This document shows positions 16,214 through 36,524 of a DNA stretch of 64,000 nucleotides, piece by piece; the stretch's first letter is position 1, and the number at the start of each line of letters is the position of its first letter. The translations under genes and the position numbers were made by a program. Location of the stretch: positions 32,001-96,000 of IMG/VR virus record IMGVR_UViG_3300035670_000038; one strand, 5' to 3'. The notes under the pieces are model-generated. The model searched no databases. It had not been told where the DNA came from and saw only the letters and a list, made by a program, of their open reading frames with translations. This stretch comes from a virus.

Positions 16214-16214
16214 T

Positions 16215-17902: not shown

Positions 17903-18066
17903 CACATACCAACACCCACTTACCAATCTAAATTACGATAAACCAATAAATTTACAGAAGCTAATACCTAAAAGGGAATGGTGGACTGTTTGGTATTATA
18001 TCTTTACTGGTAAGATGATTGACTTAAAAAAAGAAAACAATAACTAATATTTAAAGGAAGGGTTAT

Positions 18067-19092: not shown

Positions 19093-19925
19093 TTACGCAT
19101 GTTGGGATAGGAAACTCTGGACGATTTGGTAATCAAATATTCCAACTTGCTGCATTGATTGGTATTGCAGAAAAGAACGGATATGATATAAAGATTCCCA
19201 TAGAGAATACTGATAATCCATTTACATTTTTCGATTTGGCAAAACAACAAGCCGAACCAACTGGTATGGAACTTCGTAGACCATTTCTTATCCCAGACGA
19301 ATACTTTTCTCCATTTACTGACATCGCATCTGTGGTCAAGCAACGATATCAAGAACCATTCTTTCACTTCAATGGTGCAACATTAGATATTCCCGACAAT
19401 ACAGATATTGCTGGATTTTTTCAAAGTGAAAAGTATTTCAAACACGCAGAACAAACGGTTCGTGAAGTACTTACATTCCGTCCAGAAATAAGACAACAAG
19501 CTCAAATAGAATTGGCAAAGGTCAAGGACGATGCACCACGAGTGTCTATCCACGTTCGTCGTGGAGATTATGTAGCAAACTCGGCAAATCATACGGTGAC
19601 GGGTATGGAGTATTATGCTGAAGCTATTAGCAAGTTCTTTTCAAATGAATCATATCGATTCGTTGTATTCTCCGATGACCCAGAATGGTGTAAGGAAATG
19701 TTTGAAGGTGGACATATCGTAGACATCAATAACTCATATGTTGAGATGTGTATGATGAGTATGTGCGACCACCATATTATCGCAAATAGTTCATTCAGTT
19801 GGTGGGGAGCATGGTTAAATCCAAACCCAAAGAAGATTGTCACTGCACCCTCACTCTGGTTTGGTCCGAACCTTCGTCATAATAGTATTGTAGACATTCT
19901 ACCTGATGAGTGGTTTTGGATATGA
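19089..19925 (+). CDS. GT11 alpha-1,2-fucosyltransferase-like
   Basis: GRFGNQIFQ, GFFQSEKYF, HVRRGDY, FSDD, ANSSFSWWGA. Confidence 0.92.
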   Translation: MITHVGIGNSGRFGNQIFQLAALIGIAEKNGYDIKIPIENTDNPFTFFDLAKQQAEPTGMELRRPFLIPDEYFSPFTDIASVVKQRYQEPFFHFNGATLDIPDNTDIAGFFQSEKYFKHAEQTVREVLTFRPEIRQQAQIELAKVKDDAPRVSIHVRRGDYVANSANHTVTGMEYYAEAISKFFSNESYRFVVFSDDPEWCKEMFEGGHIVDINNSYVEMCMMSMCDHHIIANSSFSWWGAWLNPNPKKIVTAPSLWFGPNLRHNSIVDILPDEWFWI

Positions 19926-20521
19926 GATTAAAAGAATTTTATTATCAAATGGCAGAAGTAGAAGGTATTGGATTTTCTGATAAAGGTGACCGTCATCCAA
20001 CACACAAACACTTTTATATTGACATTTATGATGGAATGTTTTCTGCATGGAAGGATGAACCTGTTAAGTTGATGGAACTTGGTATAGCTTCTGGTGCAAG
20101 TTTATTAATGTGGTCACAGTTCTTTACAAAGGGACATATCCTTGGTCTTGACATCGTAGAACCTGTTCGTAAAGAGTATTTGGAAAAATTACCAAATGTT
20201 GGAATGATTTTTGGTGATGCATACAACAATGATAATGCTAAATACCTCGTAGAAAACTTACCAAAGCAAGACATTTTTATTGAAGATGGTGCACACGATA
20301 TAGATAATCAAATTACAGCACTACTGAAATATAATACACTCGTTAGACCAGGTGGATATTATATTTGCGAAGATTTATATATTGCAAATCTTGCAAGATA
20401 TCTCACCGAAGGTGTCTATCAAATAAACAATAGAAATTTTACAACCACTATATTTGACCAACATCGTCGTATCAATGGTTTGTATGACGATGTTATGGTT
20501 ATCATTCAATTCTTAAATTAA
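19922..20521 (+). CDS. class I SAM-dependent methyltransferase
   Basis: SDK, ELGIASGASL, GLDI, IEDGAH, PGGYYICED. Confidence 0.8.
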   Translation: MRLKEFYYQMAEVEGIGFSDKGDRHPTHKHFYIDIYDGMFSAWKDEPVKLMELGIASGASLLMWSQFFTKGHILGLDIVEPVRKEYLEKLPNVGMIFGDAYNNDNAKYLVENLPKQDIFIEDGAHDIDNQITALLKYNTLVRPGGYYICEDLYIANLARYLTEGVYQINNRNFTTTIFDQHRRINGLYDDVMVIIQFLN

Positions 20522-20522
20522 T

Positions 20523-21299
20523 ATGAAGATAGCATTGTGTTTATCTGGACAACCACGGGGATTACCTTTATCACTTAAAATGTTAAAGGCAAATCTTGTG
20601 GGTATAGAAAACATGGATATATTCTTACACGCATGGTTTGACCCATCTACAATCGGTCAACCATACGATAGTGCGCAAGCACATCAACAAGGTCGTGTGG
20701 GATTAGTGCATCCACAAACAGAAGAAATGTTATTGGGATTAACCCCAAAAGATTATTTGTTTGAACCACAAAAAGAATTTCCGTTTGCACGAAAGTTTGT
20801 ATCACCACCAGAGGCAAACCAAGAAAGAATGGCAAGTATTTTCTATTCCATCTATACCGCAAATATGTTGAAGAAACGATACGAAATATTGAACGGATTC
20901 GAATACGATTTGGTAATTCGTGCACGATATGATTTGTGGTATGAACAACCTATCGATGTGATGGAATATTGGGAGCAGTCTAGAACACACATTGTTACAG
21001 CTAATAAGTTTCAAGGAATACGAAACGACCCTAATTTTCAGCAGGGTAGTTATACGATGACAGACATCTTTGCATTCTCTACATCAAAAAATATGAACGT
21101 ATTTTGTGATACTTATCCGCACTTCTCGTTTATTCATTCGCAGATTGATATTCCATATGGTGAAAATTATATCGGGTATAGAGTTCGTGTGATGGGTGGA
21201 ATCGAAGCATACTGTGCTCCATTTAATTATGAAATAATGCATCGTGTGGTCAATATAAACAATTTAGAAGAACTGGAAAAACAATATGCCGCGTACTGA
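20523..21299 (+). CDS. putative glycosyltransferase
   Basis: KIALCLSGQPR, DIFLHAW, YDLVIRARYD, D.FAF. Confidence 0.65.
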   Translation: MKIALCLSGQPRGLPLSLKMLKANLVGIENMDIFLHAWFDPSTIGQPYDSAQAHQQGRVGLVHPQTEEMLLGLTPKDYLFEPQKEFPFARKFVSPPEANQERMASIFYSIYTANMLKKRYEILNGFEYDLVIRARYDLWYEQPIDVMEYWEQSRTHIVTANKFQGIRNDPNFQQGSYTMTDIFAFSTSKNMNVFCDTYPHFSFIHSQIDIPYGENYIGYRVRVMGGIEAYCAPFNYEIMHRVVNINNLEELEKQYAAY

Positions 21300-22158
21300 T
21301 TTTACACCAGATAATGTTGAACTCTGGATTTCCAACTGGCGGAGAAAGGAATTGATGGATGGATTCGCACGTCAGTGGTTAAATACATTTGACTTCGAAC
21401 GAGTCAATATTATCACCAATCACTCATCGGTCACTATTGATGACTTCGCAGATGACATCAAACCTCGTGTCAAGATTTGGAACAATGTAATGCGACACGA
21501 CTACGCAATCGGTCCAATGGTTGAGAATTATAATCAGGCATATGTTCATACCTTCCTCGCTGGTAAAAAGTATTGTATAACGGCACATGACAATATGATT
21601 ATCAAGGATGGGTGGGTTGACATTATCAAAGAAACTGATTATGATTTATATATGGCCCCACAAGGTGACCAAGTAACTTTGATGACATTGGAAGGATTAC
21701 GTTTCTTTGGTTGGTGGGATGAACGATATGCAACAAATGGAAACCACGAATTGGATTTCAGTACACGTGCATTACGTAGAGATTTAGGACATAATAGAGC
21801 ATCAATGGTTGATTATCACGCATGGCATAACTGGCCTGATAAGATAGATGTGGAAGGAGAAATTGTAAGTCCAATATGTAGAAATGGACATCCAGAATTC
21901 GGTGATGGGTTTCCATACCTTAGATGGAATGATATAGGACTGGATAAATACTGGACAAGAGCCAGTAAGCATGACGTTCCACAATGTGGACCCAAGACAC
22001 AGAAGTTTGAGAAGTTGACTTGGAACGATAGGAAGTGGAGAGGACAGGCACCAAACACTTTCAAGAATTTCGCAGAAGGACCAGCAGAACCAGAACTTGA
22101 TTGGTATCCGTGGTTAGATATAAATTCACTAGACTTTGACATTTGTAAAATAGTATAA
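21286..22158 (+). CDS. putative GT-A fold glycosyltransferase
   Basis: HDN, GWWDERY...HELDF; located in the glycan island. Confidence 0.55.
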   Translation: MPRTDFTPDNVELWISNWRRKELMDGFARQWLNTFDFERVNIITNHSSVTIDDFADDIKPRVKIWNNVMRHDYAIGPMVENYNQAYVHTFLAGKKYCITAHDNMIIKDGWVDIIKETDYDLYMAPQGDQVTLMTLEGLRFFGWWDERYATNGNHELDFSTRALRRDLGHNRASMVDYHAWHNWPDKIDVEGEIVSPICRNGHPEFGDGFPYLRWNDIGLDKYWTRASKHDVPQCGPKTQKFEKLTWNDRKWRGQAPNTFKNFAEGPAEPELDWYPWLDINSLDFDICKIV

Positions 22159-22170
22159 GGGGAAAATTAA

Positions 22171-22806
22171 ATGTTATCACAAAAGATTCAGGCAGCACTC
22201 GAAGATATTCGTAACGGAAAACCAATCATCGTTGTTGACAGTTATGATAGAGAAAATGAAGGTGACTTGATGATTGCCGCAGAGAAGGCAACTCCACAAA
22301 CCTTGGCGTTTATCGCAAAGGAAGCACGTGGAATTATGTGTATTCCTACACCAAAGTTTATGTTGGACCGTTTGGAAATTCCAATGAGTCCATCAAACAA
22401 CAATGACAAGTTTTCTACTCCATTCACAGTTAGTATTGACGCACGTGATGGTGTCACTACTGGCGTAAGTGTTGAAGATCGTATGGTCACGATTGGATTG
22501 GTGTTGGATGAGAACACCAAACCAGAACAACTTGCGTACCCAGGTCACTTATTTCCACTTCGTCCTCGTCCTGGTTTATTAAAAGAACGTCAAGGTCATA
22601 CGGAAGCATCAGTTCAACTTGCGATGATGGCTGGAACGAAACCAGTGGCAATCATCTGTGAGATTATGAATGACGATGGTAGCATGGCTCGTATTCCAGA
22701 CCTCGAACCATATGCAGAGAAGTGGGGACTTAATATGATTTCTATTGATGAAGTCATCGAATACTGTAATGAAACTGGATGGGAACCACCATTTAATGTT
22801 GGGTAA
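22171..22806 (+). CDS. ribB: 3,4-dihydroxy-2-butanone 4-phosphate synthase
   Basis: DRENEGDL, FTVSID, TGVS..DR, PGHLFPL, GHTEA, CEIMNDDG. Confidence 0.95.
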   Translation: MLSQKIQAALEDIRNGKPIIVVDSYDRENEGDLMIAAEKATPQTLAFIAKEARGIMCIPTPKFMLDRLEIPMSPSNNNDKFSTPFTVSIDARDGVTTGVSVEDRMVTIGLVLDENTKPEQLAYPGHLFPLRPRPGLLKERQGHTEASVQLAMMAGTKPVAIICEIMNDDGSMARIPDLEPYAEKWGLNMISIDEVIEYCNETGWEPPFNVG

Positions 22807-22809
22807 ACA

Positions 22810-23496
22810 ATGCGTGTAGCAGTTGTAACTTCTCCAAGAACAGGTTCTTCGTTTTGTATAAAATTAATATCCGAATTACTAAATCTTGAAAACTATGAAG
22901 AAATTTTAAATGAGCAGTTATATGTTTTTGAAGATGATAGCCACGTTCGTATTAATACCAACATAACAAACGAAAAAATATTGGAGAAATTATTACACAC
23001 AAATGATTATGTTGTAAAAATAATGGCTTCGGAGTTGTTTGAGAGAAATTTTAATGTAAGTGATTTTCCGTGGGATAAGTTTGATTTAATCATACTACTA
23101 GAACGTGACAATATATTCGAGCAAATAACCAGTTGGTATAGTTTAAATTATTGGCAACAACGTGTTACAAATACTACTACCTCCGAATACAACATAAAAG
23201 ATAAATTTCTTAGATATACAATTGAATGCATAAAAAAATATCACATCGTAAAAGATTTGATAATCCAGAATAGAAATAAGTTTGTTGTGATGGAAAAAGA
23301 AAACATAATAAATGATGTATCTGTAATATTCGACACGCAAATCACAGATGATATAATACTTCGTGCAAGAAAAAAATTAGTTCCTGAATGTGATTTGAAC
23401 GATATTGATTACGAAGTAATAATGAGTAATCAAAATATAAAACAAAGAGTATTAAGTATATTGGAGCAAGAATTAAATGGAACGGATAGTAACTAG
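22810..23496 (+). CDS. sulfotransferase-like protein
   Basis: TSPRTGSS 5'-PSB-like loop; LERDNIFEQITSW; paralog of 6899-7675. Confidence 0.55.
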   Translation: MRVAVVTSPRTGSSFCIKLISELLNLENYEEILNEQLYVFEDDSHVRINTNITNEKILEKLLHTNDYVVKIMASELFERNFNVSDFPWDKFDLIILLERDNIFEQITSWYSLNYWQQRVTNTTTSEYNIKDKFLRYTIECIKKYHIVKDLIIQNRNKFVVMEKENIINDVSVIFDTQITDDIILRARKKLVPECDLNDIDYEVIMSNQNIKQRVLSILEQELNGTDSN

Positions 23497-24469
23497 AGCA
23501 TACAATAGATTCGAAATAGATGAAACCAGAGGTGTCATTCGTAAGTTGAGTGCTACCCCCCGGCTTCGTGATGAGATACAATATTATGTTAAGTTAGTTA
23601 ATGCCCATCCACGTGAAGCTACGTTCTTCCCAAGATTGTTTCAATGGTCAGCAGAGGGTGAGAATCATTGGATGGATTTGGAAATGTATGATTATCCCAA
23701 CTTAGGTAAATATCTCCTAGCAGAAGATATACTACCTGAATGGTATTCTGTTTTAGATAAACTAAAAAATATTCTTCTACACTGGTCTACAACGCATCCA
23801 TATTCTGTGTGGACAAAGGAAGAAATTCGTCAGGCAGCATTCGATATGTACATCACCAAAACAGAACGAGAACAAAAAGCATTCTATAACGGATGGAAAG
23901 ATAAACTTGATTGCATATTTCTTGACCAGATAAAAAATCATATAATCTATATTAACAAAAAAGAATATAAACCATTTGAAATTATTTGGTTGCAAGTACG
24001 AAAGTACATAGAAGAAAATATGTTGGAGTTTACACCTTCCCTTATCCACGGTGATTGTTGTTTTAGTAATATTCTATATGGTAAGGATAAGAAAATTATA
24101 CGATTTATAGACCCACGTGGTTCTTTCGGTAAAGATGGTATATACGGAGATATTAGATACGATGTGGCAAAATTGTATCACTCTGTGGATGGAACATATG
24201 AATCATTTATTACAGATAAATTTGAAGTATCAAGTAATGGTAATTTACATGATTTGATTCTAACAGGTCATATGTCAAGAATAGAAACCAGTCATGCGTT
24301 GGAAGCTTTTGAAAATACTTTCTTCCCGCAATTTAATAAGAAAGAAATTAAGATATTGCAAGGATGTATTTTTATTGGAATGTGTGCTCGTCACTATGAT
24401 AGTTTAGAAAGACAACACGCAATGTATCTAACCGGAATCCGTTTACTTAATGAGGCTATGGAACTATGA
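23477..24469 (+). CDS. APH/choline-kinase-like phosphotransferase
   Basis: RAYN, IHGDCCFSNI, FIDPRG.FG, GD..YDVAKL. Confidence 0.8.
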   Translation: MERIVTRAYNRFEIDETRGVIRKLSATPRLRDEIQYYVKLVNAHPREATFFPRLFQWSAEGENHWMDLEMYDYPNLGKYLLAEDILPEWYSVLDKLKNILLHWSTTHPYSVWTKEEIRQAAFDMYITKTEREQKAFYNGWKDKLDCIFLDQIKNHIIYINKKEYKPFEIIWLQVRKYIEENMLEFTPSLIHGDCCFSNILYGKDKKIIRFIDPRGSFGKDGIYGDIRYDVAKLYHSVDGTYESFITDKFEVSSNGNLHDLILTGHMSRIETSHALEAFENTFFPQFNKKEIKILQGCIFIGMCARHYDSLERQHAMYLTGIRLLNEAMEL

Positions 24470-25236
24470 ATATACTAGTATTGATGGCTGGTAGAGGTCA
24501 ACGATTCCGTGATAAAGGATACGATAAGCCAAAACCATTAATCGAAGTTAATGGTAAGACAATTCTTCAATGGACAACCGAATCATGCCCATACATCAGT
24601 CATAATGGTAAGGGACAAGGTGATTATATAAAACTCCACTTTGCAGTTCTCCAAGAGCATTTAGACGAAGGATTGGATAAATTTCTGTATTCCGTTTATG
24701 GTCGTGATATTGAAATTATTCCATTCAAGGAAGTAACCAGAGGTAGTTTAGATACCGCGATGCAAGCAGCATCTCGTATGTGGCATAAAGAATATCCATT
24801 GTTGGTATTAGATTCCGACAACAAATATAATGACAATGGTTTTAAAGATTTTGTTCGTGAAATAGTCTTTAAAAAGAACGCAATGGCAGTGGCATGCTTC
24901 GACAATCCAGACCAATCACTTCCTAATAAGTGGTCAAATGTAGATGTTCGTGAAGGAGTGGCAAAAGGAATTCGTGAAAAAGACGATTCGTGGGTTCATC
25001 ATCCCACAATGATTGGAATATTCTACTTTGGTCAAACTAAGTTCTTTAAGGAATATGCAAAGTTTATTATGGAGTTTCATAAACCAGTAGAGTTTAATGG
25101 GAACGCAGAGTATTATATGAGTATGGTTCCGTCTTATAATATCGGTATAAATACTCCTGTATATGTTCACAAAGTCACCGATGTTGTTCCACTTGGAACA
25201 CCAGAAGATGTTAAAAAGTTTGAGGAATCTATATGA
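24466..25236 (+). CDS. sugar-phosphate nucleotidyltransferase
   Basis: MAGRGQRF, PKPLI, DSD, REK, EYY, LGTPED. Confidence 0.85.
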   Translation: MNILVLMAGRGQRFRDKGYDKPKPLIEVNGKTILQWTTESCPYISHNGKGQGDYIKLHFAVLQEHLDEGLDKFLYSVYGRDIEIIPFKEVTRGSLDTAMQAASRMWHKEYPLLVLDSDNKYNDNGFKDFVREIVFKKNAMAVACFDNPDQSLPNKWSNVDVREGVAKGIREKDDSWVHHPTMIGIFYFGQTKFFKEYAKFIMEFHKPVEFNGNAEYYMSMVPSYNIGINTPVYVHKVTDVVPLGTPEDVKKFEESI

Positions 25237-25613
25237 TTTTTTGTTTTGACATTGATGCAACTATCTGTGAAAATAAAACTGGTGATATGACTTACGCAGA
25301 TGTTAAACCATTCCCAGAAGCATTGGAAACATTACGATGGTTACGAGCAGAAGGACACACCATTATTCTTCATACTGCACGACATATGAAAACTGGTGGT
25401 GGAAATCAAGGAAAGGTATTGAAATTACAAGGTAAAGTATTATTTGATTGGCTAGAAAAGTGGGATGTTCCATATGATGAACTTTGGTGGAGTAAACCAC
25501 ACGCCGATTTAACGATAGATGATGCAGTACATAGACACACAGATTGGGCAACCTCAATCTTAGCAATAAAAGATAGAATACGTAAAGGACCAAGAACCGT
25601 GGAGAATCCATAA
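25233..25613 (+). CDS. HAD-family phosphatase (capsule biosynthesis type)
   Basis: FDIDATIC, HTAR, YDEL...KP..D..IDD. Confidence 0.85.
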   Translation: MIFCFDIDATICENKTGDMTYADVKPFPEALETLRWLRAEGHTIILHTARHMKTGGGNQGKVLKLQGKVLFDWLEKWDVPYDELWWSKPHADLTIDDAVHRHTDWATSILAIKDRIRKGPRTVENP

Positions 25614-26446
25614 TGTCACAACCAACATTCTTTTTTGACACAGCAGACACCGACTATATCCGTAAGATTTGGGACAAGTTGGGTAAGTATATTGACGGTA
25701 GTTCCGTAATCGGAATAACCACCAACCCAAACGCATTGGCAAAGGTCAATTGCGATACACTTGAAAAGTTTGAAACACTTGTACCACAGATGACTTCACT
25801 TGTTGGAGAACTTCGTGGTGAAGGACCACAAGGATTGGTCTATGTACAAGTTCCAAATTCTACAATGAAGGATGAAGATATTCTTCGTTGGGCAACCTAT
25901 GTGAATGAGTTTAATGGAAACGGTGCAGCAATCGCATTAAAACTTCCTCATTTCAGTTATGTCCTTCGTTTATCTGGTGAACCTGAATTACAAAATCTTT
26001 TCCTAAATGTAACTGGTGTATCGGATGCAAATACAATCATTAAGGCGTTGAGTTACCAGAATGTATTCTTCGCAAGTATTATTCCAGGTCGTATGGAAGA
26101 AGTTGGTATTGATGCAAACGCACATCTCAAATATTTGGCTGACCAACAACTCCAACGTCACCAGAACATAATCGCTGGTAGTATGAGAACAATTGAAGGA
26201 TTGAAGAACTCTATCTTCTATCACACGGTTCCGACCATCGGTAGTCGTGTATGGGATTTGATTGATAAGGAAAATCGTTGGGAAGAATTTGCATCCTATT
26301 GGGAAACCACATATGAAGTCTCAGAAGAACCAAGTGCTGACTACACACCATTGGTTACAGATACGAATCTGGATTTAAGTAAGCAATTCTTTGACCAGAT
26401 GGATAAGTTGGGTGAATCACTTCATACGGAGTTTATGTCCAGATGA
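25613..26446 (+). CDS. transaldolase/fructose-6-phosphate aldolase family protein
   Basis: FFDTAD, GITTNP, ALKLP (Schiff-base Lys), NVT, PGR, AGSMR. Confidence 0.75.
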   Translation: MSQPTFFFDTADTDYIRKIWDKLGKYIDGSSVIGITTNPNALAKVNCDTLEKFETLVPQMTSLVGELRGEGPQGLVYVQVPNSTMKDEDILRWATYVNEFNGNGAAIALKLPHFSYVLRLSGEPELQNLFLNVTGVSDANTIIKALSYQNVFFASIIPGRMEEVGIDANAHLKYLADQQLQRHQNIIAGSMRTIEGLKNSIFYHTVPTIGSRVWDLIDKENRWEEFASYWETTYEVSEEPSADYTPLVTDTNLDLSKQFFDQMDKLGESLHTEFMSR

Positions 26447-27162
26447 ACATAATCATCCCAATGGCAGGTGAGGGGACTCGTGTAAAAAGCACAGTTCCCA
26501 AACCACTTGTCGAGGTTATTAGTGGAAAACCAATGATTGAGATGGCATTGGAATCATTAAACATTGATGGACATTATTGTTTTATTGTTCGTCGTTATAA
26601 CAATCAAGATTGGAATGTCGCACTTCGTGAAGCAATCCACAAAACGGTAGGAAATGCGGTGATTGTGGAAATCGACTATCTAACAAAAGGACCAGCGATT
26701 TCTGCATTACATGCACCAAATCTTTTCTTTAATGATGAAGATTTATTGGTTACCAACTGTGACCAGATAATGCATTGGGATGCAGACAAGTTTATCGACT
26801 TCACCAAGACAACAGATGCGGATGGTGCTGTGGTCACATATGAAACACAAACACCAAAGAATAGTTACGCAAGAGTTATATCGGACGAAGAACATCCTGA
26901 ATTTGATATTATAAAAGAAAAGGAAGTTATTAGTAAATATTCATTAAATGGTATTCATTGGTGGAAGCATGGAAAGAACTTTGCAAAATCAGTGGTGAAG
27001 ATGATGGAAAGTAAAGACACAGTAAATGGTGAATACTACGTTGGTCCATCATACAATTATTTAGATGGTACTAAGAGAGTTTACAATATAGATTCATCAG
27101 AACATTTTGCTGTTGGAACTCTGGAAGATATTGAACGATATAGGGTGATTTATGGACGTTAA
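26443..27162 (+). CDS. sugar-phosphate nucleotidyltransferase
   Basis: PMAGEGTR, PKPL, NCDQ, EK..IS, NGEYYV.P.YN, GT.ED. Confidence 0.85.
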   Translation: MNIIIPMAGEGTRVKSTVPKPLVEVISGKPMIEMALESLNIDGHYCFIVRRYNNQDWNVALREAIHKTVGNAVIVEIDYLTKGPAISALHAPNLFFNDEDLLVTNCDQIMHWDADKFIDFTKTTDADGAVVTYETQTPKNSYARVISDEEHPEFDIIKEKEVISKYSLNGIHWWKHGKNFAKSVVKMMESKDTVNGEYYVGPSYNYLDGTKRVYNIDSSEHFAVGTLEDIERYRVIYGR

Positions 27163-27478
27163 ACGTATTGAGAATATGAAGGGTGGATGGTTTATTGGGG
27201 ACTTCGACCCTGCCGTTTTACGAACCCACGACTTTGAAGTAGGGTATAAGTTTCATCCAAAAGGTGAGAAGTGGGACAAACACTATCACAAACGAGCAGT
27301 CGAGATTACATATCTGATTCGTGGCAAGATGCAAATACAGGATAGGATATTGACTTCTGGTGATATATTCACTATACTTCCGTATGAAGTTGCAGACCCA
27401 ATTTTCTTAGAAGATTGTGAAGTAGTAATAGTAAAAAGCCCATCCGTTGTGGGTGACAAATATACTATAGAGGAATAA
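27152..27478 (+). CDS. cupin protein
   Basis: GWFIGDF.P, HYHK...E, VK.PS..GDKY. Confidence 0.75.
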   Translation: MDVKRIENMKGGWFIGDFDPAVLRTHDFEVGYKFHPKGEKWDKHYHKRAVEITYLIRGKMQIQDRILTSGDIFTILPYEVADPIFLEDCEVVIVKSPSVVGDKYTIEE

Positions 27479-27481
27479 GTT

Positions 27482-28711
27482 ATGAGTGTTAATATTTTTA
27501 CACGTGATGTAGATTTATCAAAATATTTTGTTGTCAAGTATTTCTTAGTCGGTAAGACATCACTACGTGATGCTGCATGGAACTTGGCAATTGGACAAAG
27601 TATCGGCAATCCCAACAACAGAAGTGTGTGGGAAACCGACCAGATGTTTCTTGACCACAGTTGTTTCATTCTTGCAGACGAAGGGGAACTAAAATCAAAG
27701 ACTTCTGGTGAAGTTGAGATTGCTTTCCCACTCGCAAACATCAATCTTGAAGAAGATGGTGTGTCTCAAATTCTTTGCCATATCGCCGGTGGTCAAGTAG
27801 ATATTCTCGAAATTGAACAGTGCCACGTATTAGACATCACATTACCAGAAGAAATTGACCAGATGTTTACCCTCAAACCTGCGTATGGTATCACAGGTTT
27901 CCGTGAATTCAATTGGGTAGAAAATAAACCATTCTTCGGTGGTATCATCAAACCCAAGGTTGGTATGAGTCCAAAGGTATTGTTGGAAGCTGTGAAGGAA
28001 ATGGTTGACGGTGGTGTGAACTTTATCAAGGAAGATGAGTTACTTGGTGACCCATCACACTGTTCACTAAAAGAACGAGTTCCACTCATCTCTAACTGGT
28101 TAAGAAAGAATTGTCCAGAGGTAATGTATACCTTCTGTATCAATGGTGATAGTCCTTACGCACTCCAACGAGCACAGTTCGTAGAGGATGAAGGTGGACT
28201 TGGTGTTCACATCAACGTGTGGAGTGGGTTGGGTGTCTATCGTGCAATTCGTAAGCAGAATCCTAGACTCTGGATTCATTTCCAGAAGTCGGGTGATAAG
28301 TTCTTTACTGACAGACGAGCACCAAATCATATCTATTGGCCTGTTATCTGTAAGATTGCAGGATGGTCTGGTGCAGACTCTATTCACGCAGGTATGATTG
28401 GTGGATATATGAACCAAGACGATACTGAATTGAAGGACGCACTAAAGGTATTGTGGAAGTATAATGTTATCCCAGCACTCAGTTGTGGAATGCATCCTGG
28501 ATTAGTTCAACACATCAACACTTTACTTGGTAGTAATGATTGGATGGCAAACGTTGGTGGGGCGATGCACGGACACCCGATGGGAACCAAGGCTGGTGGA
28601 TTGGCAATGCGCCAAGCTATTAGTGGATTCCACGGACCAGAGTATGAAGCTGCAATCAAGAAATGGGGATTCAAAGAAGTAAACCCTGATTTACAATATA
28701 GAATTTTTTAA
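27482..28711 (+). CDS. RuBisCO-like protein (form IV RLP)
   Basis: GGIIKPKVG, FIKEDE (carbamylated-Lys motif), ADSIHAG, PALSCGMHPG, GGAMHGHPMG; lacks the HRA motif of carboxylating forms (HFQKSG). Confidence 0.9.
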   Translation: MSVNIFTRDVDLSKYFVVKYFLVGKTSLRDAAWNLAIGQSIGNPNNRSVWETDQMFLDHSCFILADEGELKSKTSGEVEIAFPLANINLEEDGVSQILCHIAGGQVDILEIEQCHVLDITLPEEIDQMFTLKPAYGITGFREFNWVENKPFFGGIIKPKVGMSPKVLLEAVKEMVDGGVNFIKEDELLGDPSHCSLKERVPLISNWLRKNCPEVMYTFCINGDSPYALQRAQFVEDEGGLGVHINVWSGLGVYRAIRKQNPRLWIHFQKSGDKFFTDRRAPNHIYWPVICKIAGWSGADSIHAGMIGGYMNQDDTELKDALKVLWKYNVIPALSCGMHPGLVQHINTLLGSNDWMANVGGAMHGHPMGTKAGGLAMRQAISGFHGPEYEAAIKKWGFKEVNPDLQYRIF

Positions 28712-28723
28712 TAGGAATATACA

Positions 28724-29380
28724 ATGGTCACCCAAGACATCCTTAATGCAATATCAAGAACCCCAACAGACATCTACGGATTGAAATGGGCACCTTCGGT
28801 AGAACCTACTATTGGTAATGATGTGGATTGGATTAATCCAACTCGTGGAAATTGGTCAATTCATTGGAGTGCAGCTAATGATATAGCACTTCGTGAAGCA
28901 TGGTCACGATGTGAGAGTTCTCCAAAACTTATTGTTGAAATCGGTGTACACCGCCCGGAAAGAAATGACGAAGGACGTTCTTCCACAAGTACGTTACTCA
29001 GTTTAAAGGATGACGATTGTATGTACATTGGTATAGATTTAGCAGACAGAACATTCTTAAACGATATGGGTAAGAATATATTTACCATCCAAGGTGATTC
29101 ATCAAACAAGAATGAAGTGTATAAATTGATGGAATGGTATGGTAAAGAAACTATTGATTTTATGTTTGTAGATGGATGGCATTCGATTAATCAATGCTTA
29201 CGAGATTGGCAATATTGGGAAAGAATTTCAAACACAGGTGTTATGGCGTTCCACGATACAAATTATCATCCAGGACCAGTTGCACTTCTTGACGCTGTAG
29301 ACGAATCGATATTTGATATACAGATATTTAATCGTGATGAAGATGACGCCGGTGTTGCATACGTAAAACGTAGAGGTTAA
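28724..29380 (+). CDS. class I SAM-dependent methyltransferase (Methyltransf_24-like)
   Basis: VEIGV, GID, GDS, FVDGWHS, FHDT. Confidence 0.8.
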   Translation: MVTQDILNAISRTPTDIYGLKWAPSVEPTIGNDVDWINPTRGNWSIHWSAANDIALREAWSRCESSPKLIVEIGVHRPERNDEGRSSTSTLLSLKDDDCMYIGIDLADRTFLNDMGKNIFTIQGDSSNKNEVYKLMEWYGKETIDFMFVDGWHSINQCLRDWQYWERISNTGVMAFHDTNYHPGPVALLDAVDESIFDIQIFNRDEDDAGVAYVKRRG

Positions 29381-29381
29381 T

Positions 29382-30293
29382 ATGGCAAAGGGTTTGATTT
29401 CAATATTTACATTACCGCACGAGATTGATAATCTTCAAACAACGTTATACAATCTTCGTAGAAACTATGCGGTGATGTCTGGGCACGAATTCGGATTTGA
29501 CATAACTCTGTGTTTAAGTGATGAACTTACAGATTGGAATACTTCACAATTATCTAGAGAATACTTTGCAAGTAAGTATCGGCAAATTGTAGATAGTTTG
29601 TGTGATTGGGCAACGTTAGAAAGTATCAAGATTGAATATGGAAACACTATTCTTGGATGTGTGTCGCAACGTAGACACTCATTAAAATTCTTGAATAAAT
29701 ATGATTTCACGATGTGGTTAGACAATGATATGTTTTTCAATGATTATCTGTTGGCATATGTTGGTACATCGGTAAATATGTTATTAGAACAAGGTATAGA
29801 ACACTATGTTCTCACACCACAGATTACACGGCAGTGGGATGAAACGTGGGATGTCATTGTCAACAAAGATTTGTTAGATAGACCACTCAATGACAATTTA
29901 ACCGCCGATGTATTTGACTTGGGTTTAACACCGAGTGGTAATGTTGGATTACGACCAATAGAAACCTTTAAAGCTGCGGGTGGATGGTGTACAACAATTA
30001 GTAATGATTTGTTAGAACTTACTGGTATTCCAGATTCATTCGGTCATTACGGATTGGAAGATACATATGTCTTAGTGTGTGCAGATTTACTTCGTAGAAT
30101 GAATCGTAAAGAAAAACCACAACAGTTTGTAATTGACAATTTGATTGTTGGTGAAAACCACAGATATCAAACTAGTGATTACTTGAAGAATCATCTTGTA
30201 TCTTTCGATAGAAAAGATGAGTTTAGACAAATAGCAACAAACAACTTTAATAGTGAGATTGAAAAGTTTATCCAACGGATGCTTCAACAATGA
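29382..30293 (+). CDS. putative GT-A glycosyltransferase
   Basis: WLDND DxD motif; GHYGLEDT. Confidence 0.6.
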   Translation: MAKGLISIFTLPHEIDNLQTTLYNLRRNYAVMSGHEFGFDITLCLSDELTDWNTSQLSREYFASKYRQIVDSLCDWATLESIKIEYGNTILGCVSQRRHSLKFLNKYDFTMWLDNDMFFNDYLLAYVGTSVNMLLEQGIEHYVLTPQITRQWDETWDVIVNKDLLDRPLNDNLTADVFDLGLTPSGNVGLRPIETFKAAGGWCTTISNDLLELTGIPDSFGHYGLEDTYVLVCADLLRRMNRKEKPQQFVIDNLIVGENHRYQTSDYLKNHLVSFDRKDEFRQIATNNFNSEIEKFIQRMLQQ

Positions 30294-31048
30294 AAATCTT
30301 TTACAGAATATCAGAATCTACTAATTCACAACACGCAGCTGCAAGAACGTGGCAAGTGAAACTTCCAAATGCAACAAAAAAGAATTGCTTACTCAATACG
30401 ATGGAATGTTTTCCAACCGCAGAGATAAAAGTGTTTGTAGACTCAATTACCGATGAAACGTGGAATTGGTTACACACTCTCCCACGAATCACTATCCAGA
30501 AGATTAATGAAGGTTCTGATGCAAAGTCTATGCGGGTGTTATTGAAGGAAGCAGTATTATTAGAAGATGATAATCAAATCGTATTGTTCCAAGAAGATGA
30601 TTATCTATATCTACCTGGGTCAGAGAAGAAGATAATAGAAGCATTAAACTATTCTCACTACGCTACTGGATATTTACATCCCGACAAGTTTTGGCATCCA
30701 AGTCGTGGTGGTAATCCATTCACTCCGATGGATAATGTGTCCGAAGCAACACAAGTCATAAAAACTTCTGACCATTTCTGGATGGTTACAAACTCCACAA
30801 CAAACACATTCGCAACCACGGTTGGTGTATTAAAGGAAGATATTGATGTGTGGATGTGGGGAACAGAAGATTTAATTAATACAAAAGACTTCGCAATCTT
30901 TCTTAAACTTCGTGAGAAGGGTCGAGCATTGGTGCAACCACTACCATCATTAGCAACACATTGTCTCAAAGGATACGAAGCACCTACTGTTGGATTAGAT
31001 ATTGATTCTTGGGAAAGCATACAACCCTTGACACCAACCACAGAGTAG
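30290..31048 (+). CDS. putative glycosyltransferase
   Basis: FQEDDYLY, Y.HPDK, STT.TFA, PSLATH. Confidence 0.6.
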   Translation: MKIFYRISESTNSQHAAARTWQVKLPNATKKNCLLNTMECFPTAEIKVFVDSITDETWNWLHTLPRITIQKINEGSDAKSMRVLLKEAVLLEDDNQIVLFQEDDYLYLPGSEKKIIEALNYSHYATGYLHPDKFWHPSRGGNPFTPMDNVSEATQVIKTSDHFWMVTNSTTNTFATTVGVLKEDIDVWMWGTEDLINTKDFAIFLKLREKGRALVQPLPSLATHCLKGYEAPTVGLDIDSWESIQPLTPTTE

Positions 31049-31056
31049 TTTATATT
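31028..31056 (+). promoter_or_regulatory. sigma70-like promoter TTGACA-17-TATATT
   Basis: ttgaca ccaaccacagagtagtt tatatt. Confidence 0.65.
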
Positions 31057-31089
31057 TATATCTTAGAACCCTTAACATAATATATTATA

Positions 31090-32130
31090 ATGATTAATAA
31101 AGTATTAATTACGGGCGTAGGTGGACTATTGGGTTCACGACTCGCAGATTGGATTTTAGCAAATAAACCAGGTGTAGAAGTTATTGGTATTGACGATTTT
31201 AGTGGTGGATATAGAGAGAACGTTGACCCACGGGTAAAATTGTACGTAATGGATTTGGGTAAGCAATCCGCAGAACGTATCTTCGACGAACACAGACCCG
31301 ACCTCGTGTATCACTTCGCAGCATATGCCGCAGAAGCATTGTCTCCATTCATTCGACAATATAACTATGTAAACAATCTTCTTGCAACTGCAGGGATTGT
31401 TAATAACTGCATCAAGTATGACGTAAAGCGTATTGTCTTTACTTCATCTATGGGTGTGTATGGCTTCGGTGCAAACCAACCTCCGTTCCACGAAGATATG
31501 GCACGAGCACCAATCGATCCATATGGTATTGCAAAGGCAGCGTGTGAACAAGATATCGAAGTGGCTGGAGTCCAACACGGATTAGATTGGTGTATCATCC
31601 GTCCACACAACGTGTTCGGTGCAAAGCAAAACATTTGGGACAGTTACAGAAACGTTCTTGGTATCTGGATGTACAAGCATCTTACTGGTCAACCGTTAAC
31701 TATCTTTGGTGATGGAGAACAAAAACGTGCATTCAGTTGTATTGATGACTCATTAGAACCACTCTGGAATGCTGGAACCTATGAGAAGGCATCCAAGCAG
31801 ATTATCAACCTTGGTGGTATTCACGAATATAGTATCAACATAGCAGCACAGACATTGATTGGGGTTATGGGTGGTGGTCGAGTCAAGTATCTCCCACCCC
31901 GTCACGAAGTCAAGTACGCATATCCAACGTGGCAGAAGTCGGTTGATATTCTTGGGTTCCAACACAAGACCGATTTGTATGAAGGATTACAGAAGATGTG
32001 GGATTGGGCTAAGTTCCAACCAGAACGTCCTCGTCAAATCTGGGGAACCTATGAAGTAGATAAGAACATTTATCCGTTCTGGAAAACGGATGTACTTGTA
32101 ACTGAGGCGAAAACGGCAAAATTAATATGA
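31090..32130 (+). CDS. NAD-dependent epimerase/dehydratase (GalE-like)
   Basis: TGVGGLLGS, FTSS, YGIAK, RPHNVFG, GDGEQKRAF. Confidence 0.88.
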   Translation: MINKVLITGVGGLLGSRLADWILANKPGVEVIGIDDFSGGYRENVDPRVKLYVMDLGKQSAERIFDEHRPDLVYHFAAYAAEALSPFIRQYNYVNNLLATAGIVNNCIKYDVKRIVFTSSMGVYGFGANQPPFHEDMARAPIDPYGIAKAACEQDIEVAGVQHGLDWCIIRPHNVFGAKQNIWDSYRNVLGIWMYKHLTGQPLTIFGDGEQKRAFSCIDDSLEPLWNAGTYEKASKQIINLGGIHEYSINIAAQTLIGVMGGGRVKYLPPRHEVKYAYPTWQKSVDILGFQHKTDLYEGLQKMWDWAKFQPERPRQIWGTYEVDKNIYPFWKTDVLVTEAKTAKLI

Positions 32131-36403: not shown

Positions 36404-36524
36404 TAACCTTTTTCAGACAAATCTTTGGATGGTTGTTTTTAACCACACTTATGTTTTTTGTTGTAAGTGTGTTTACAATATCCATCGGTGTTGCTTGGTT
36501 GTGGGAACATACCGTAGGTAAATT

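What the first reader, a model, noticed from the sequence alone, without database searches (positions are those of the whole stretch)
23477..28711. RuBisCO-like protein in a coupled kinase / NTP-transferase / HAD / aldolase / NTP-transferase / cupin cassette: candidate new activated (branched) sugar pathway
Seen: seven overlapping or abutting genes ending in a form IV RLP. The RLP keeps KPK and KEDE but has HFQKSG in place of the HRA motif. The cassette sits inside a glycosyltransferase island. Known: RLPs catalyse enediolate chemistry (tautomerase, isomerase and transcarboxylase reactions) on phosphorylated keto-sugars, including in branched-sugar catabolism. Kinase, HAD and nucleotidyltransferase trios build NDP-sugars. 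Inference: here the RLP works anabolically, with the aldolase and cupin, to make an unusual nucleotide-activated sugar or sugar acid for virion or host-surface glycosylation.
Basis: partly seen in the sequence, partly recalled or inferred. Interest (0 to 1): 0.8.

Follow-up and report, generated by a model that had tools for sequence, protein, structure and literature searches.

The report
RuBisCO-like protein paired with nucleotidyltransferase
A marine T4-like phage carries a non-carboxylating RuBisCO relative that, in phages, SAR11, Legionella and tiny-celled bacteria and archaea alike, sits next to (or is fused to) an enzyme that attaches nucleotides to sugar phosphates, which points to an undescribed role for the RuBisCO family in building cell-surface sugars.

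Summary
The seven genes, the RLP and its motifs (KPK, KEDE, HFQKSG) are real and lie in a 19-kb glycan island of a T4-like phage. The "one coupled cassette" reading is only partly right, because the stretch holds two separable modules.

**Module A.** It recurs collinearly without any RLP or cupin in 21 other viral contigs and in Synechococcus phage S-SKS1, often as an NT-RibB fusion.

**Module B.** It comprises NT2, a cupin and the RLP. It is the only part kept in distant RLP phages and in 50 cellular loci (SAR11, Legionella, Patescibacteria, DPANN, Nonomuraea and others).
- The NT is directly adjacent to the RLP in 50 of 59 loci.
- Natural RLP-NT (667-671 aa) and GDPD-like-RLP (546 aa) fusions exist.
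- The RLP clade is monophyletic and has an invariant active site in 57 of 57 loci: K175, K177, K201, D203, E204 and H327 are kept; H294Q, K334Y, E60G, N123G and G380C are changed.
- It fails every curated RLP/RuBisCO model cut-off.

**Best reading.** The RLP is an enolising, non-carboxylating enzyme that feeds, or acts on the product of, a nucleotidyltransferase to make an activated keto-sugar derivative for surface glycans. The substrate is unknown. The phage RLP clade was already reported in 2018-19, but without function or context.

The parts
27482..28711 (+). RuBisCO-like protein (409 aa) of the 'form IV-like', NT-linked clade. It keeps K175, K177, K201, D203, E204, H327, S379, G381, G403 and G404. 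It carries H294Q, R295K, H298D, K334Y, E60G, T65N, W66P, N123G and G380C.
   Evidence: PF00016 at 114.5 bits. Best solved relatives are 3nwr (1e-32) and 2cwx (6e-31), with alignments shown. Residue table. Clade support 100 SH-aLRT. All NCBIfam equivalog cut-offs are missed. Spinach residue numbering is mapped from recalled motifs.
27152..27478 (+). Small single-domain cupin (108 aa) with the motif G-x5-H44-x-H46-x4-E51-x6-G58. There is no His in motif 2.
   Evidence: 41-sequence alignment A1. Profile against PDB: quercetinase 2.4e-5, archaeal phosphomannose isomerase 2e-4. AF2 pLDDT 92.2. Foldseek TM 0.6-0.76 to cupins, including 7zvm/7zvy PMI and KdgF. Adjacent to the RLP in 22 of 59 loci.
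26443..27162 (+). NT2, the nucleotidyltransferase that is the conserved partner of the RLP.
   Evidence: PF12804 at 30.5 bits and PF00483 at 29.6 bits. Adjacent to the RLP, or separated only by the cupin, in 50 of 59 loci. Fused to the RLP in P0243, P0392 and P0397. Profile against PDB: 4evw at 7e-36, then sugar-1-P NTs.
25613..26446 (+). Module A: short transaldolase/FSA-type class I aldolase (277 aa).
   Evidence: Pfam TAL_FSA at 21.3 bits, below the cut-off of 27. Profile A7 against PDB: transaldolases 3r8r at 2e-11 and 3s0c at 5e-9, with DTA, TTNP, catalytic Lys and GR motifs aligned. Collinear with RibB-kinase-HAD in L069-L089.
25233..25613 (+). Module A: small HAD phosphatase (126 aa).
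   Evidence: TIGR01689 'capsule biosynthesis phosphatase' at 59.4 bits, below the cut-off of 162. DIDAT motif. Fused to NT1 in L077 and L089.
24466..25236 (+). Module A: NT1, a second and divergent nucleotidyltransferase.
   Evidence: PF00483 at 25.5 bits. Holds the same position (kinase-NT1-HAD) in L069-L071.
23477..24469 (+). Module A: APH/choline-kinase-like small-molecule kinase (330 aa).
   Evidence: PF01636 at 25.3 bits against a cut-off of 23.2. HGDCCFSN and IDPRG motifs. Invariant in alignment A8. No solved relative found by sequence.
22810..23496 (+). Lineage-specific 228-aa ORF inserted between RibB and the kinase. Function unknown.
   Evidence: No Pfam or NCBIfam hit. No homologue in L001-L009.
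22171..22806 (+). Module A: 3,4-dihydroxy-2-butanone-4-phosphate synthase (RibB), with canonical sequence.
   Evidence: PF00926 at 250.9 bits. Heads module A in 20 of 21 loci. Fused to an NT2-type NT in 12 of those loci (one cut by a contig end) and in S-SKS1.
20523..21299 (+). DUF7796 protein, a candidate transferase that travels with both modules.
   Evidence: PF25072 at 26.3 bits, just below the cut-off of 27. Homologues lie near the RLP in 18 of 59 loci and in most module-A loci. Unrelated to LicD.
13833..32918 (+). Surrounding glycan-biosynthesis island: GT4 x2, GDP-mannose 4,6-dehydratase, SDR epimerases, GT11 fucosyltransferase, methyltransferases and GT2.

Best explanation
**Two modules.** The stretch holds two juxtaposed, separately mobile biosynthetic modules inside a phage glycan island.

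**Module B (NT2-cupin-RLP, 26443-28711).** This is the phage copy of an ancient, widely spread unit whose core is the RLP plus an NTP-transferase. A cupin and/or a short GDPD-like protein often accompany them.

*Proposed mechanism (inferred).*
1. The RLP binds a phosphorylated 2-ketose, most likely a pentulose phosphate or bisphosphate. Binding uses the retained P1 glycine loops and the carbamyl-Lys201/Asp203/Glu204 metal site.
2. K175 makes the enediolate.
3. Because K334, E60, N123 and H294 are replaced (Y, G, G, Q), no CO2 is added. The enediolate is resolved by proton transfer or elimination to a rearranged keto-sugar phosphate.
4. The His2-Glu cupin tautomerises or isomerises that product.
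5. NT2 joins the phosphate to an NMP. The order of RLP and NT could be reversed.
6. The activated compound is handed to transferases of the island (DUF7796, GTs; LicD or GDPD-like proteins in other lineages) to decorate a surface polysaccharide of the infected cell.

**Module A (RibB-kinase-NT1-HAD-transaldolase, 22171-26446).** This is an independent pathway. It starts from ribulose-5-P through DHBP and uses the kinase / phosphatase / nucleotidyltransferase logic known from heptose nucleotide pathways.

**Shown:** gene families, modularity, adjacency, fusions, active-site signature, glycan-locus context.
**Inferred:** substrate, product, order of steps, and the role in infection.
For: - **Modularity.** The full set is kept only in 5 close viral loci. 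The 4 distant RLP phages keep only NT2 (34-46% id), the cupin (54-60%) and the RLP (74-81%). In 21 of 21 further viral loci found through the transaldolase, RibB/kinase/HAD/TAL are present with 0 RLP and 0 cupin hits. S-SKS1 shows the same pattern.
- **RLP-NT link.** An NT lies within 6 kb in 55 of 59 loci and is directly adjacent in 50 of 59. RLP-NT fusion proteins of 667-671 aa occur in a 128-member cluster drawn from several sources. A GDPD-like-RLP fusion of 546 aa also exists.
- **One conserved chemistry.** The active-site signature is invariant in 57 of 57 locus RLPs at 33-89% identity. The Q294+Y334 pair occurs in 21 of 21 clade representatives and 0 of 77 others. The clade has 100 support.
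- **Not a known RLP.** Every NCBIfam cut-off is missed. For the window: form III 151 of 497, OiaX 114 of 700, MtnW 95 of 409. For the Legionella and Pelagibacter members.
- **Glycan context.** The window island is described. LicD lies next to RLP-NT in 4 Legionellaceae loci. Bac_transf, Wzz and GT2 are present in L058, and WavE, DegT, GT4 and SDR elsewhere.
- **NT class.** The profile's nearest characterised relatives are sugar-1-P nucleotidyltransferases.
- **Cupin.** It has a conserved metal triad and a PMI/KdgF-like fold.
Against: - There is no biochemical datum, and the substrate and product are guesses.
- Known RLP substrates carry a non-anomeric phosphate, whereas the nearest characterised NT relatives use sugar-1-phosphates. 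The hand-over step is therefore not obvious.
- No mutase lies in module B.
- The cupin is found in only 22 of 59 loci and the GDPD-like protein in 25 of 59. The GDPD-like protein is absent from this phage record, which is 67% complete. The minimal pathway may therefore differ between lineages.
- Many of the 59 loci are close copies of one another (for example L001/L002, L003/L004/L008, L042/L043, L035/L036/L040), so the counts overstate independent events.
- In the window lineage the two modules are always adjacent and co-oriented (6 of 6), so functional coupling there cannot be excluded.
- The host is unknown. There is no psbA, and core genes are only about 42-44% identical to those of known phages.
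Confidence: 0.6

Rival explanations
1. All seven genes (plus RibB) form one linear pathway in which the RLP acts on an intermediate made by the aldolase, kinase and HAD steps, giving a single branched NDP-sugar.
For: In the window and its 5 close relatives the genes are contiguous, co-oriented and overlapping. An NT2-type NT is fused to RibB in module-A loci and to the RLP in module-B proteins. The two modules may therefore use related substrates.
Against: Module A occurs without RLP or cupin in 21 of 21 viral loci and in S-SKS1. Module B occurs without RibB, kinase or TAL in 4 viral and 50 cellular loci.
Confidence: 0.15
2. A salvage or catabolic RLP. It would act as in methionine salvage (MtnK kinase, MtnW RLP, MtnX HAD, MtnD cupin) or the Rhodospirillum MTA-isoprenoid shunt (RLP + cupin giving DXP), recycling methylthio- or deoxy-ribose during infection.
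For: The window holds the same fold set: an APH-like kinase, a HAD, a cupin and an RLP. The RLP + cupin pairing is recalled from Erb et al. 2012. I saw that work only as a citation and one passage on the MTA-isoprenoid shunt in PMC7264872.
Against: - MtnW models score 95 and 66 bits against cut-offs of 409 and 514.
- The kinase and HAD belong to module A, not to the RLP unit.
- No MtnA- or MtnB-type gene was seen among the scanned neighbours.
- The distal-site residues stay polar: K/R295 and H327 are invariant. By my recall, methylthio substrates sit in a hydrophobic pocket.
- The constant partner is an NT in glycan loci.
Confidence: 0.1
3. A bona fide carboxylase (form III-like) used for nucleotide salvage or CO2 fixation in the infected cell.
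For: The best NCBIfam and Pfam similarities are to form III RuBisCO. The metal and carbamate residues are kept.
Against: K334Y, H294Q, E60G and N123G are invariant. By established RuBisCO enzymology (recalled), these residues are needed for CO2 addition and cleavage. No AMP-phosphorylase or R15P-isomerase partner is present, whereas the real IF-2B-form III fusions P0277 and P0284 fall outside the clade.
Confidence: 0.02
4. A non-catalytic RLP that acts as a scaffold or regulator of the nucleotidyltransferase.
For: Fusion and adjacency alone do not prove catalysis.
Against: The metal-binding and base residues are invariant in 57 of 57 sequences. New invariant residues (Q294, Y334, C380, N65, P66) lie at active-site positions. 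The RLP is the most conserved gene of the unit, at 74-89% against 34-82% for NT2.
Confidence: 0.05

Closest known systems
'Form IV-like' RuBisCO-like proteins of phages and Beckwithbacteria (Jaffe et al., Mol Biol Evol 2018/19, PMC6389311; passages read)
   Same: This is the same clade. It comprises divergent RLPs on Myoviridae-type contigs from IMG/VR plus a Beckwithbacteria copy. My scan also recovers a Beckwithbacteria locus (L024).
   Different: That paper leaves the function 'unclear'. Its main text does not contain the words nucleotidyl, glycosyl or cupin, and its supplementary figure S1 could not be opened. Here the clade is extended to SAR11, Legionellaceae, Actinomycetota, Spirochaetota, Verrucomicrobiota, Planctomycetota and DPANN. 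The phage group is nested within the cellular members rather than basal. The NT, cupin and GDPD-like partners and the fusions are described here.
Rhodospirillum rubrum MTA-isoprenoid shunt: RLP (1,3-proton transfer on 5-methylthioribulose-1-P) plus a cupin methylsulfurylase giving DXP (Erb et al. 2012; recalled, seen only as a citation in PMC7264872)
   Same: An RLP is paired with a small cupin. The chemistry is enediolate isomerisation without CO2. The product is a 1-deoxy-ketose phosphate, the next homologue of the RibB product DHBP.
   Different: The distal pocket stays polar (K295, H327). The constant partner is an NT, not MTA-salvage enzymes. The clade is different. The relationship of the two cupins was not tested.
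Bacillus methionine salvage (MtnK, MtnA, MtnB, MtnW, MtnX, MtnD)
   Same: The fold set overlaps: an APH-like kinase, an RLP, a HAD phosphatase and a cupin.
   Different: The RLP scores far below the MtnW cut-offs. The kinase and HAD belong to another module. No MtnA or MtnB was seen. Two NTs are present.
Bifunctional type II phosphomannose isomerase / GDP-mannose pyrophosphorylase (NT domain + cupin domain; recalled)
   Same: An NTP-transferase sits next to a metal cupin. The cupin's fold neighbours include small archaeal PMIs. A GDP-mannose dehydratase and a fucosyltransferase lie in the same island.
   Different: This does not explain the RLP, which is the better conserved partner, nor the RLP-NT fusions. 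The cupin is missing in 37 of 59 loci.
Nucleotide-heptose pathways (kinase HddA/HldE, HAD phosphatase GmhB, NT HddC; recalled) as the model for module A
   Same: A kinase + HAD phosphatase + NT trio lies downstream of a sugar-phosphate-forming step. HddC-type proteins are among the NT profile's PDB hits.
   Different: The entry enzymes here are DHBP synthase and a short transaldolase. That combination was not found in the searched literature.
CDP-alcohol / LicC-LicD type phospho-substituent systems
   Same: In 4 Legionellaceae loci the RLP-NT pair lies beside a LicD-family phosphotransferase. LicC and inositol-1-P cytidylyltransferase are weak hits of the NT profile.
   Different: The window has no LicD. 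DUF7796 is not detectably related to LicD (hhalign probability 0.2%).

Membership tests
Bona fide RuBisCO (forms I-III) | Carbamylated K201 with D203/E204 metal ligands, and K175 | tested here: met
   K183, D185, E186 and K157 of the window protein align to these positions. They are invariant in 57 of 57 loci. The numbering map is recalled.
Bona fide RuBisCO (forms I-III) | Loop-6 K334, H294, E60 and N123, which are needed for CO2 addition and cleavage | tested here: not met
   The residues are Y309, Q268, G38 and G104, invariant in 57 of 57 loci.
Bona fide RuBisCO (forms I-III) | Score above the curated model cut-off (TIGR03326 497 bits; NF003252 438 bits) | tested here: not met
   151.1 and 138.9 bits.
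MtnW DK-MTP-1-P enolase (methionine salvage RLP) | Score above the curated cut-off (NF007095 409 bits; TIGR03332 513.6 bits) | tested here: not met
   95.3 and 65.8 bits. The Legionella and Pelagibacter clade members score 156 and 162 bits.
MtnW DK-MTP-1-P enolase (methionine salvage RLP) | Operon context with MtnA/MtnB/MtnK/MtnX/MtnD | tested here: not met
   No IF-2B or class II aldolase family appears among the scanned neighbours. The conserved neighbour is an NT.
OiaX 3-oxo-isoapionate-4-P decarboxylase (apiose catabolism RLP) | Score above the curated cut-off (700 bits) | tested here: not met
   113.6 bits.
'Form IV-like' NT-linked RLP clade | Monophyly with phage and Beckwithbacteria sequences | tested here: met
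   54 rows form one clade with 100 SH-aLRT support against 30 other RuBisCO/RLP representatives. The Beckwithbacteria locus L024 falls inside it (quick IQ-TREE, LG+G4; the outgroup rows carry no family labels).
'Form IV-like' NT-linked RLP clade | Signature G60 N65 P66 G123 Q294 K/R295 Y334 C380 (defined here) | tested here: met
Cupin superfamily | Motif 1, G-x5-H-x-H-x3,4-E-x6-G, and the double-stranded beta-helix fold | tested here: met
   Alignment A1. AF2 pLDDT 92.2. Foldseek probability 1.0 to many cupins.
Cupin superfamily | Motif 2 histidine (the fourth metal ligand) | tested here: not met
   No conserved His follows G70 in A1.
Transaldolase/FSA (class I aldolase) | Pfam PF00923 gathering score | tested here: not met
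   21.3 bits against a cut-off of 27.
Transaldolase/FSA (class I aldolase) | Profile similarity to solved members, with the Schiff-base Lys and the Asp aligned | tested here: met
   3r8r at E 2.1e-11. 'alkiP' aligns to 'tvkiP' and 'FfDTA' to 'FVDTA'. K110 and D9 are invariant in A7.
DHBP synthase (RibB) | Pfam PF00926 over its full length | tested here: met
   250.9 bits, profile positions 2-191 of 191.
Sugar-phosphate nucleotidyltransferase (NTP_transferase) | Pfam gathering score and the N-terminal G-x-G-T-R...K motif | tested here: met
   NT1 at 25.5 bits and NT2 at 29.6 bits against a cut-off of 21.2. MAGEGTR...PKPL in NT2.
HAD phosphatase (TIGR01689 capsule biosynthesis phosphatase) | Curated cut-off of 162 bits | tested here: not met
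   59.4 bits. The DxDxT motif I is present, so this is a HAD fold but not that subfamily.
APH / choline-kinase-like kinases | Pfam gathering score and the HxDxxxxN catalytic loop | tested here: met
   25.3 bits against a cut-off of 23.2. H191, G192, D193 and N198 are invariant in A8.

The most novel reading that the evidence does not exclude
The RLP and RibB may be alternative entry enzymes to one unknown class of activated donors, nucleotide-linked 1-deoxy-keto-sugars.

- RibB makes the C4 compound DHBP from ribulose-5-P.
- The RLP has lost exactly the residues (K334, E60) whose mutation in real RuBisCO diverts the enediolate to beta-elimination. That enzymology is recalled and could not be confirmed in the library.
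- The RLP would therefore make a C5 1-deoxy-diketo- or 1-deoxy-pentulose phosphate from a pentulose (bis)phosphate, and the cupin would finish the tautomerisation.
- NT2-type enzymes are fused to RibB in some phages and to the RLP in other organisms. They would activate both products.
- LicD, GDPD-like or DUF7796 proteins would then transfer them as phospho-substituents onto surface glycans of SAR11, Legionellaceae, CPR, DPANN and phage-infected cells.

This would be the first anabolic, glycan-directed function in the RuBisCO superfamily.
Probability: 0.15. Interest if true: 0.9.

Novelty: new variant of a known kind. Interest (0 to 1): 0.7.

Why it matters
As far as I recall, every RLP function known so far is catabolic or a salvage reaction. 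Here a large RLP clade with an invariant active site is tied, by adjacency and by gene fusion, to nucleotide activation inside polysaccharide loci.

If that link is functional, the RuBisCO fold has been recruited into cell-surface glycan biosynthesis. The carriers include some of the most abundant marine bacteria (SAR11) and their phages, as well as host-dependent CPR and DPANN organisms.

The finding also gives a testable function to the '~80 phage RuBisCO-like sequences' left unexplained in 2018-19. In addition, it exposes a second uncharacterised phage pathway (RibB-kinase-NT-HAD-transaldolase) that uses a riboflavin-pathway enzyme in a glycan context.

For phage biology, both modules are candidates for rewriting the receptor landscape of the infected cell.

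Tried and rejected
- **Single-sequence AF2 of the cupin.** pLDDT was 44.9 and the model was unusable. It was redone with an alignment.
- **Complex prediction, RLP + cupin.** No verdict, with scores of 0.00 and 0.00. This counts neither for nor against binding.
- **Single-sequence PDB searches.** The kinase and transaldolase gave nothing useful and NT2 gave weak hits only. The kinase profile against PDB also gave nothing.
- **DUF7796 as a LicD-like phosphotransferase.** Rejected: hhalign probability is 0.2% and there is no solved relative. The Atlas returned only its own family and a 'capsular polysaccharide biosynthesis' label.
- **RLP against 50,697 phage records.** No match.
- **Cyanophage host.** There is no psbA in the 131-kb record, which is 67% complete. 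The clamp loader and a virion protein are only about 42-44% identical to cyanophage and other T4-like proteins. The host remains open.
- **GDPD-like gene in this phage.** Not found by tblastn or by profile.
- **Literature.** Searches linking RLPs to nucleotidyltransferases, cupins, SAR11 islands or genome neighbourhoods found nothing relevant. Searches linking DHBP synthase to phage or polysaccharide clusters found nothing. Searches for the beta-elimination side reaction found nothing usable.
- **Unavailable sources.** Supplements were not opened, so Jaffe et al. figure S1, which may show gene context, was not seen.
- **Labelled reference RLPs for the tree.** These could not be fetched. The outgroup rows are unnamed representatives, so the sister group among known RLP classes is not established.

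Full report
**What the window is.** The window is bases 32001-96000 of a 131,302-base IMG/VR virus record that CheckV estimates as 67% complete.
- Almost all genes up to about 54 kb lie on the + strand.
- PHROG matches include a T4-type clamp loader, an exonuclease, a CobT-like protein and a virion protein.
- The clamp loader and the virion protein are only about 42-44% identical to their best matches among 50,697 phage records. Those matches are Microcystis, Stenotrophomonas and Synechococcus phages.
- No psbA is present in the record.
- It is therefore a marine-type T4-like myovirus of an uncultured lineage with an unknown host.

**Checking the observation.** The seven ORFs exist as described, with 1-11-base overlaps and one 3-base gap.
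- Pfam and NCBIfam support the kinase (APH, 25.3 bits), both nucleotidyltransferases, the HAD (TIGR01689, 59 bits, below its cut-off) and the RLP (PF00016, 114.5 bits).
- The 'aldolase' is below Pfam's threshold as a single sequence (21.3 against 27). A 13-sequence profile hits solved short transaldolases at E 2e-11, with the catalytic Lys and Asp aligned.
- The 108-aa protein has no Pfam hit. A 41-sequence alignment shows the cupin motif G-x5-H-x-H-x4-E-x6-G. The profile hits solved cupins. The alignment-based AF2 model has pLDDT 92 and matches cupins, including small archaeal phosphomannose isomerases and KdgF.
- KPK, KEDE and HFQKSG are all in the RLP. HFQKSG aligns to HAHRNG / HAHRAM in solved relatives.
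- The island from 13833 to 32918 holds GT4 x2, GDP-mannose 4,6-dehydratase, SDR epimerases, a GT11 fucosyltransferase, methyltransferases and GT2.

**Two modules, not one cassette.** A scan of viral contigs with the RLP gave 9 loci.
- In 5 of them (RLP 88-89% identical) the whole stretch from RibB to the downstream GT2 is collinear with the window.
- In the other 4 (RLP 74-81%) only NT2 (34-46%), the cupin (54-60%) and the RLP are kept, side by side. RibB, kinase and transaldolase are absent.
- Conversely, a scan with the transaldolase gave 26 viral loci. Five are the same contigs as above.
- In the remaining 21, RibB-kinase-(NT)-HAD-transaldolase is collinear. None has an RLP or cupin hit at E <= 1e-3 within 8 kb.
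- In 12 of those 21 the NT is fused to the N-terminus of RibB. Eleven are full-length at 467-479 aa and one is cut by a contig end. In 2 of the 21, NT1 is fused to the HAD.
- The cultured Synechococcus siphovirus S-SKS1 has the same module: an NT-RibB fusion, then kinase at 37%, HAD at 46% and transaldolase at 35% identity. It lies in a GDP-fucose/fucosyltransferase island, again without an RLP.
- So the window juxtaposes module A (RibB, [228-aa insert], kinase, NT1, HAD, transaldolase) and module B (NT2, cupin, RLP).

**The RLP family.**
- In a 90%-clustered collection, 2625 proteins match at E <= 0.001. The 120 best are all 76-94% identical, on contigs up to 346 kb.
- In a 50%-clustered library of 1.84 billion proteins there are 873 hits. 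About 20 full-length representatives are 28-55% identical, and the rest drop to about 30% or lower.
- In an alignment of the query, 97 full-length representatives and one fusion protein, 21 representatives share the query's pattern and 0 of the other 77 combine Q294 with Y334.
- A scan of one genome per prokaryotic species with the clade alignment returned 50 loci. They come from:
  - Pelagibacterales, including a complete Pelagibacter chromosome;
  - Legionella drozanskii, L. nautarum and L. maceachernii, a Tatlockia MAG and a Francisellaceae SAG;
  - Nonomuraea rosea, Azospirillum oleiclasticum and Turneriella;
  - Verrucomicrobiota, Planctomycetota and Bacteroidota;
  - Patescibacteria, including Beckwithbacteria and Saccharibacteria;
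  - Woese-, Nano-, Pace- and Micrarchaeota.
- In 57 locus sequences of at least 330 aa, the residues at RuBisCO positions 60, 65, 66, 123, 173, 175, 177, 201, 203, 204, 294, 327, 334, 379, 380, 381 and 403 are invariant: G, N, P, G, I, K, K, K, D, E, Q, H, Y, S, C, G, G. Position 295 is K in 55 and R in 2. The map to spinach numbering rests on recalled motifs and the alignments.
- A quick IQ-TREE (84 rows) gives the clade 100% SH-aLRT support against 30 other RuBisCO/RLP representatives. The 8 phage rows form one group (100) nested among cellular sequences, with weak support (86) for a Saccharibacteria-type sister.
- The window protein and the Legionella and Pelagibacter members all miss every NCBIfam cut-off: form III, form II, MtnW and OiaX.

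**Conserved partners.** I clustered the ORFs within 6 kb of the RLP in the 59 loci (9 viral + 50 genomic; several are near-duplicates).

| Neighbour | Loci (of 59) |
|---|---|
| Nucleotidyltransferase | 55 |
| ~150-aa GDPD-like protein | 25 |
| Cupin | 22 |
| DUF7796 | 18 |
| SDR epimerase/dehydratase | 18 |
| GT2 | 17 |

- The NT is the immediate neighbour, or is separated only by the cupin, in 50 of 59 loci. Most of the exceptions are contig ends.
- The ~150-aa protein has no Pfam or NCBIfam hit. Its profile matches the catalytic N-terminal half of solved glycerophosphodiester phosphodiesterases (2.5e-5 and 9e-4).
- Fusions confirm the links. P0243 is RLP + NTP_transferase. Its 90% cluster has 128 members, and 11 of the 15 listed are 667-671 aa, from Tara, MGnify, JGI and ENA contigs. 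P0406 (546 aa, seen on 4 contigs) is GDPD-like + RLP.
- The NT profile's best solved relative is the uncharacterised 4evw (7e-36). Next come mannose-1-P guanylyltransferases, RmlA, HddC and GlmU (1e-12 to 1e-8). IspD, LicC and inositol-1-P cytidylyltransferase are weaker.

**Context in cells.**
- In four Legionellaceae loci a LicD-family phosphotransferase (149 bits) lies divergently beside RLP-NT, flanked by unrelated genes.
- In a Francisellaceae locus the unit lies between a Bac_transf initiating transferase, a Wzz-like protein, GT2 and the GDPD-like gene.
- Elsewhere the neighbours are WavE, DegT aminotransferase, GT4, SDRs, methyltransferases and a CMP-sugar synthetase-like gene.
- In L005 they include UDP-galactopyranose mutase, a TylF methyltransferase and a HAD-NT fusion.
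- These are polysaccharide loci.

**How it most likely works.**
- *Shown:* the RLP keeps the metal/carbamate site, K175, K177, H327 and the P1 phosphate loops. It has lost every residue tied to CO2 addition and C-C cleavage. It has gained invariant Q294, Y334, C380, N65 and P66.
- *Inferred:* it still makes an enediolate from a phosphorylated ketose but resolves it by proton transfer or elimination. The cupin, where present, completes an isomerisation or tautomerisation. The NT converts the phosphate ester into an NDP/CMP-linked donor, or supplies the NDP-linked substrate. A transferase (DUF7796 or GTs here; LicD or GDPD-like elsewhere) then places it on a surface glycan.
- That NT2-type enzymes are fused to RibB in one set of phages and to the RLP in other organisms suggests that RibB and the RLP deliver chemically related products. 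DHBP is a 1-deoxy-tetrulose phosphate. The only RLP + cupin pair I recall (Rhodospirillum; Erb et al. 2012, cited in PMC7264872) yields 1-deoxy-xylulose-5-P. This is the basis of the bolder reading in the section on the most novel reading, and it is not tested.
- Module A follows the kinase / HAD phosphatase / NT logic of heptose-nucleotide pathways (recalled), with RibB and a transaldolase as the scaffold-forming steps.

**Prior knowledge.**
- Jaffe et al. (PMC6389311; abstract and passages read) reported about 80 non-redundant 'form IV-like' RLPs on IMG/VR phage contigs (some Myoviridae) and in Beckwithbacteria, with 'possible functionality unclear'. Their main text does not mention nucleotidyltransferases, glycosylation or cupins. 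The supplement was not available to me.
- Yooseph et al. 2007 (PMC1821046; passages read) already noted new RuBisCO-homologue branches in ocean metagenomes.
- Full-text searches found nothing that links RLPs to nucleotidyltransferases, cupins, SAR11 islands or genome-neighbourhood studies. They also found nothing that links DHBP synthase to phage or polysaccharide clusters.
- The library lacks most subscription journals, so absence there is weak evidence.

**Verdict.** The RLP is a member of a clade that was reported earlier but never characterised. Its conserved coupling to a nucleotidyltransferase, its fixed active-site signature and its wide cellular distribution are, as far as my searches go, new.

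Noticed in passing
window 53998-54094 (+): Rfam tRNA-Sec hit (RF01852, 57.7 bits against a gathering score of 47, E 9e-10). ARAGORN reported no tRNA in the window. The hit sits exactly where GC rises from about 0.38-0.40 to about 0.47-0.51.
   Followed up: partly
window 54000-64000: A stretch of higher GC (0.47-0.51) with reversed GC skew, holding only short ORFs, mostly on the minus strand. Reading TGA through does not open long frames. There is almost no DNA similarity to known phages. It may be a foreign insert, a small-gene region or an assembly joint.
   Followed up: partly
window 22171-26446; L069-L089; L013 (S-SKS1 35955-39493): A self-contained five-gene module, DHBP synthase-kinase-NT-HAD-short transaldolase, recurs in 21 viral contigs and in cultured Synechococcus siphovirus S-SKS1. 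It often carries an NT-RibB fusion of 467-479 aa and one or two DUF7796 genes. It uses a riboflavin-pathway enzyme in a glycan island, and its product is unknown.
   Followed up: partly
window 22810-23496 (+): A 228-aa ORF sits between RibB and the kinase and is absent from all 9 related viral loci. Its N-terminus (…SPRTGSSF…) looks to me like a sulfotransferase PAPS-binding loop. There is no family hit.
   Followed up: no
L005-L007, L009, L014 and 20 cellular loci; proteins P0290, P0406: A short (about 145-160 aa) GDPD-like protein with invariant HR..N…E.D…HD motifs is the second commonest neighbour of the RLP, in 25 of 59 loci. It is fused to the RLP in P0406 (546 aa). It has no Pfam or NCBIfam hit, and its profile hits solved GDPDs at 2.5e-5.
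   Followed up: yes
L014 (contig CALAZP010000190.1, binned as Saprospirales): This 64-kb MAG contig has the same gene order as viral loci L006 and L007, including a gp32-like gene, and a 74% identical RLP. It is probably a phage contig mis-binned into a bacterial MAG.
   Followed up: partly
proteins P0336, P0378, P0277, P0284: Other RuBisCO-family fusions lie outside the clade: TIR domain + RLP (583 aa), RuBisCO + APH-like kinase (1265 aa), and IF-2B (R15P-isomerase-like) + form III RuBisCO (726 and 742 aa).
   Followed up: no
L035, L036, L038, L040 (SAR11 single-cell genomes): In one SAR11 subclade the unit GDPD-like-NT-RLP-NT-DUF7796 lies beside the housekeeping genes thyX, mrp/NUBPL and hflKC. 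It therefore appears to be chromosomal rather than viral there.
   Followed up: partly
window 35738-36403 and 39464-41725: ThyX (144 bits) and a CobT-like 'cobalamin biosynthesis' protein typical of marine T4-like phages lie next to the glycan island.
   Followed up: no
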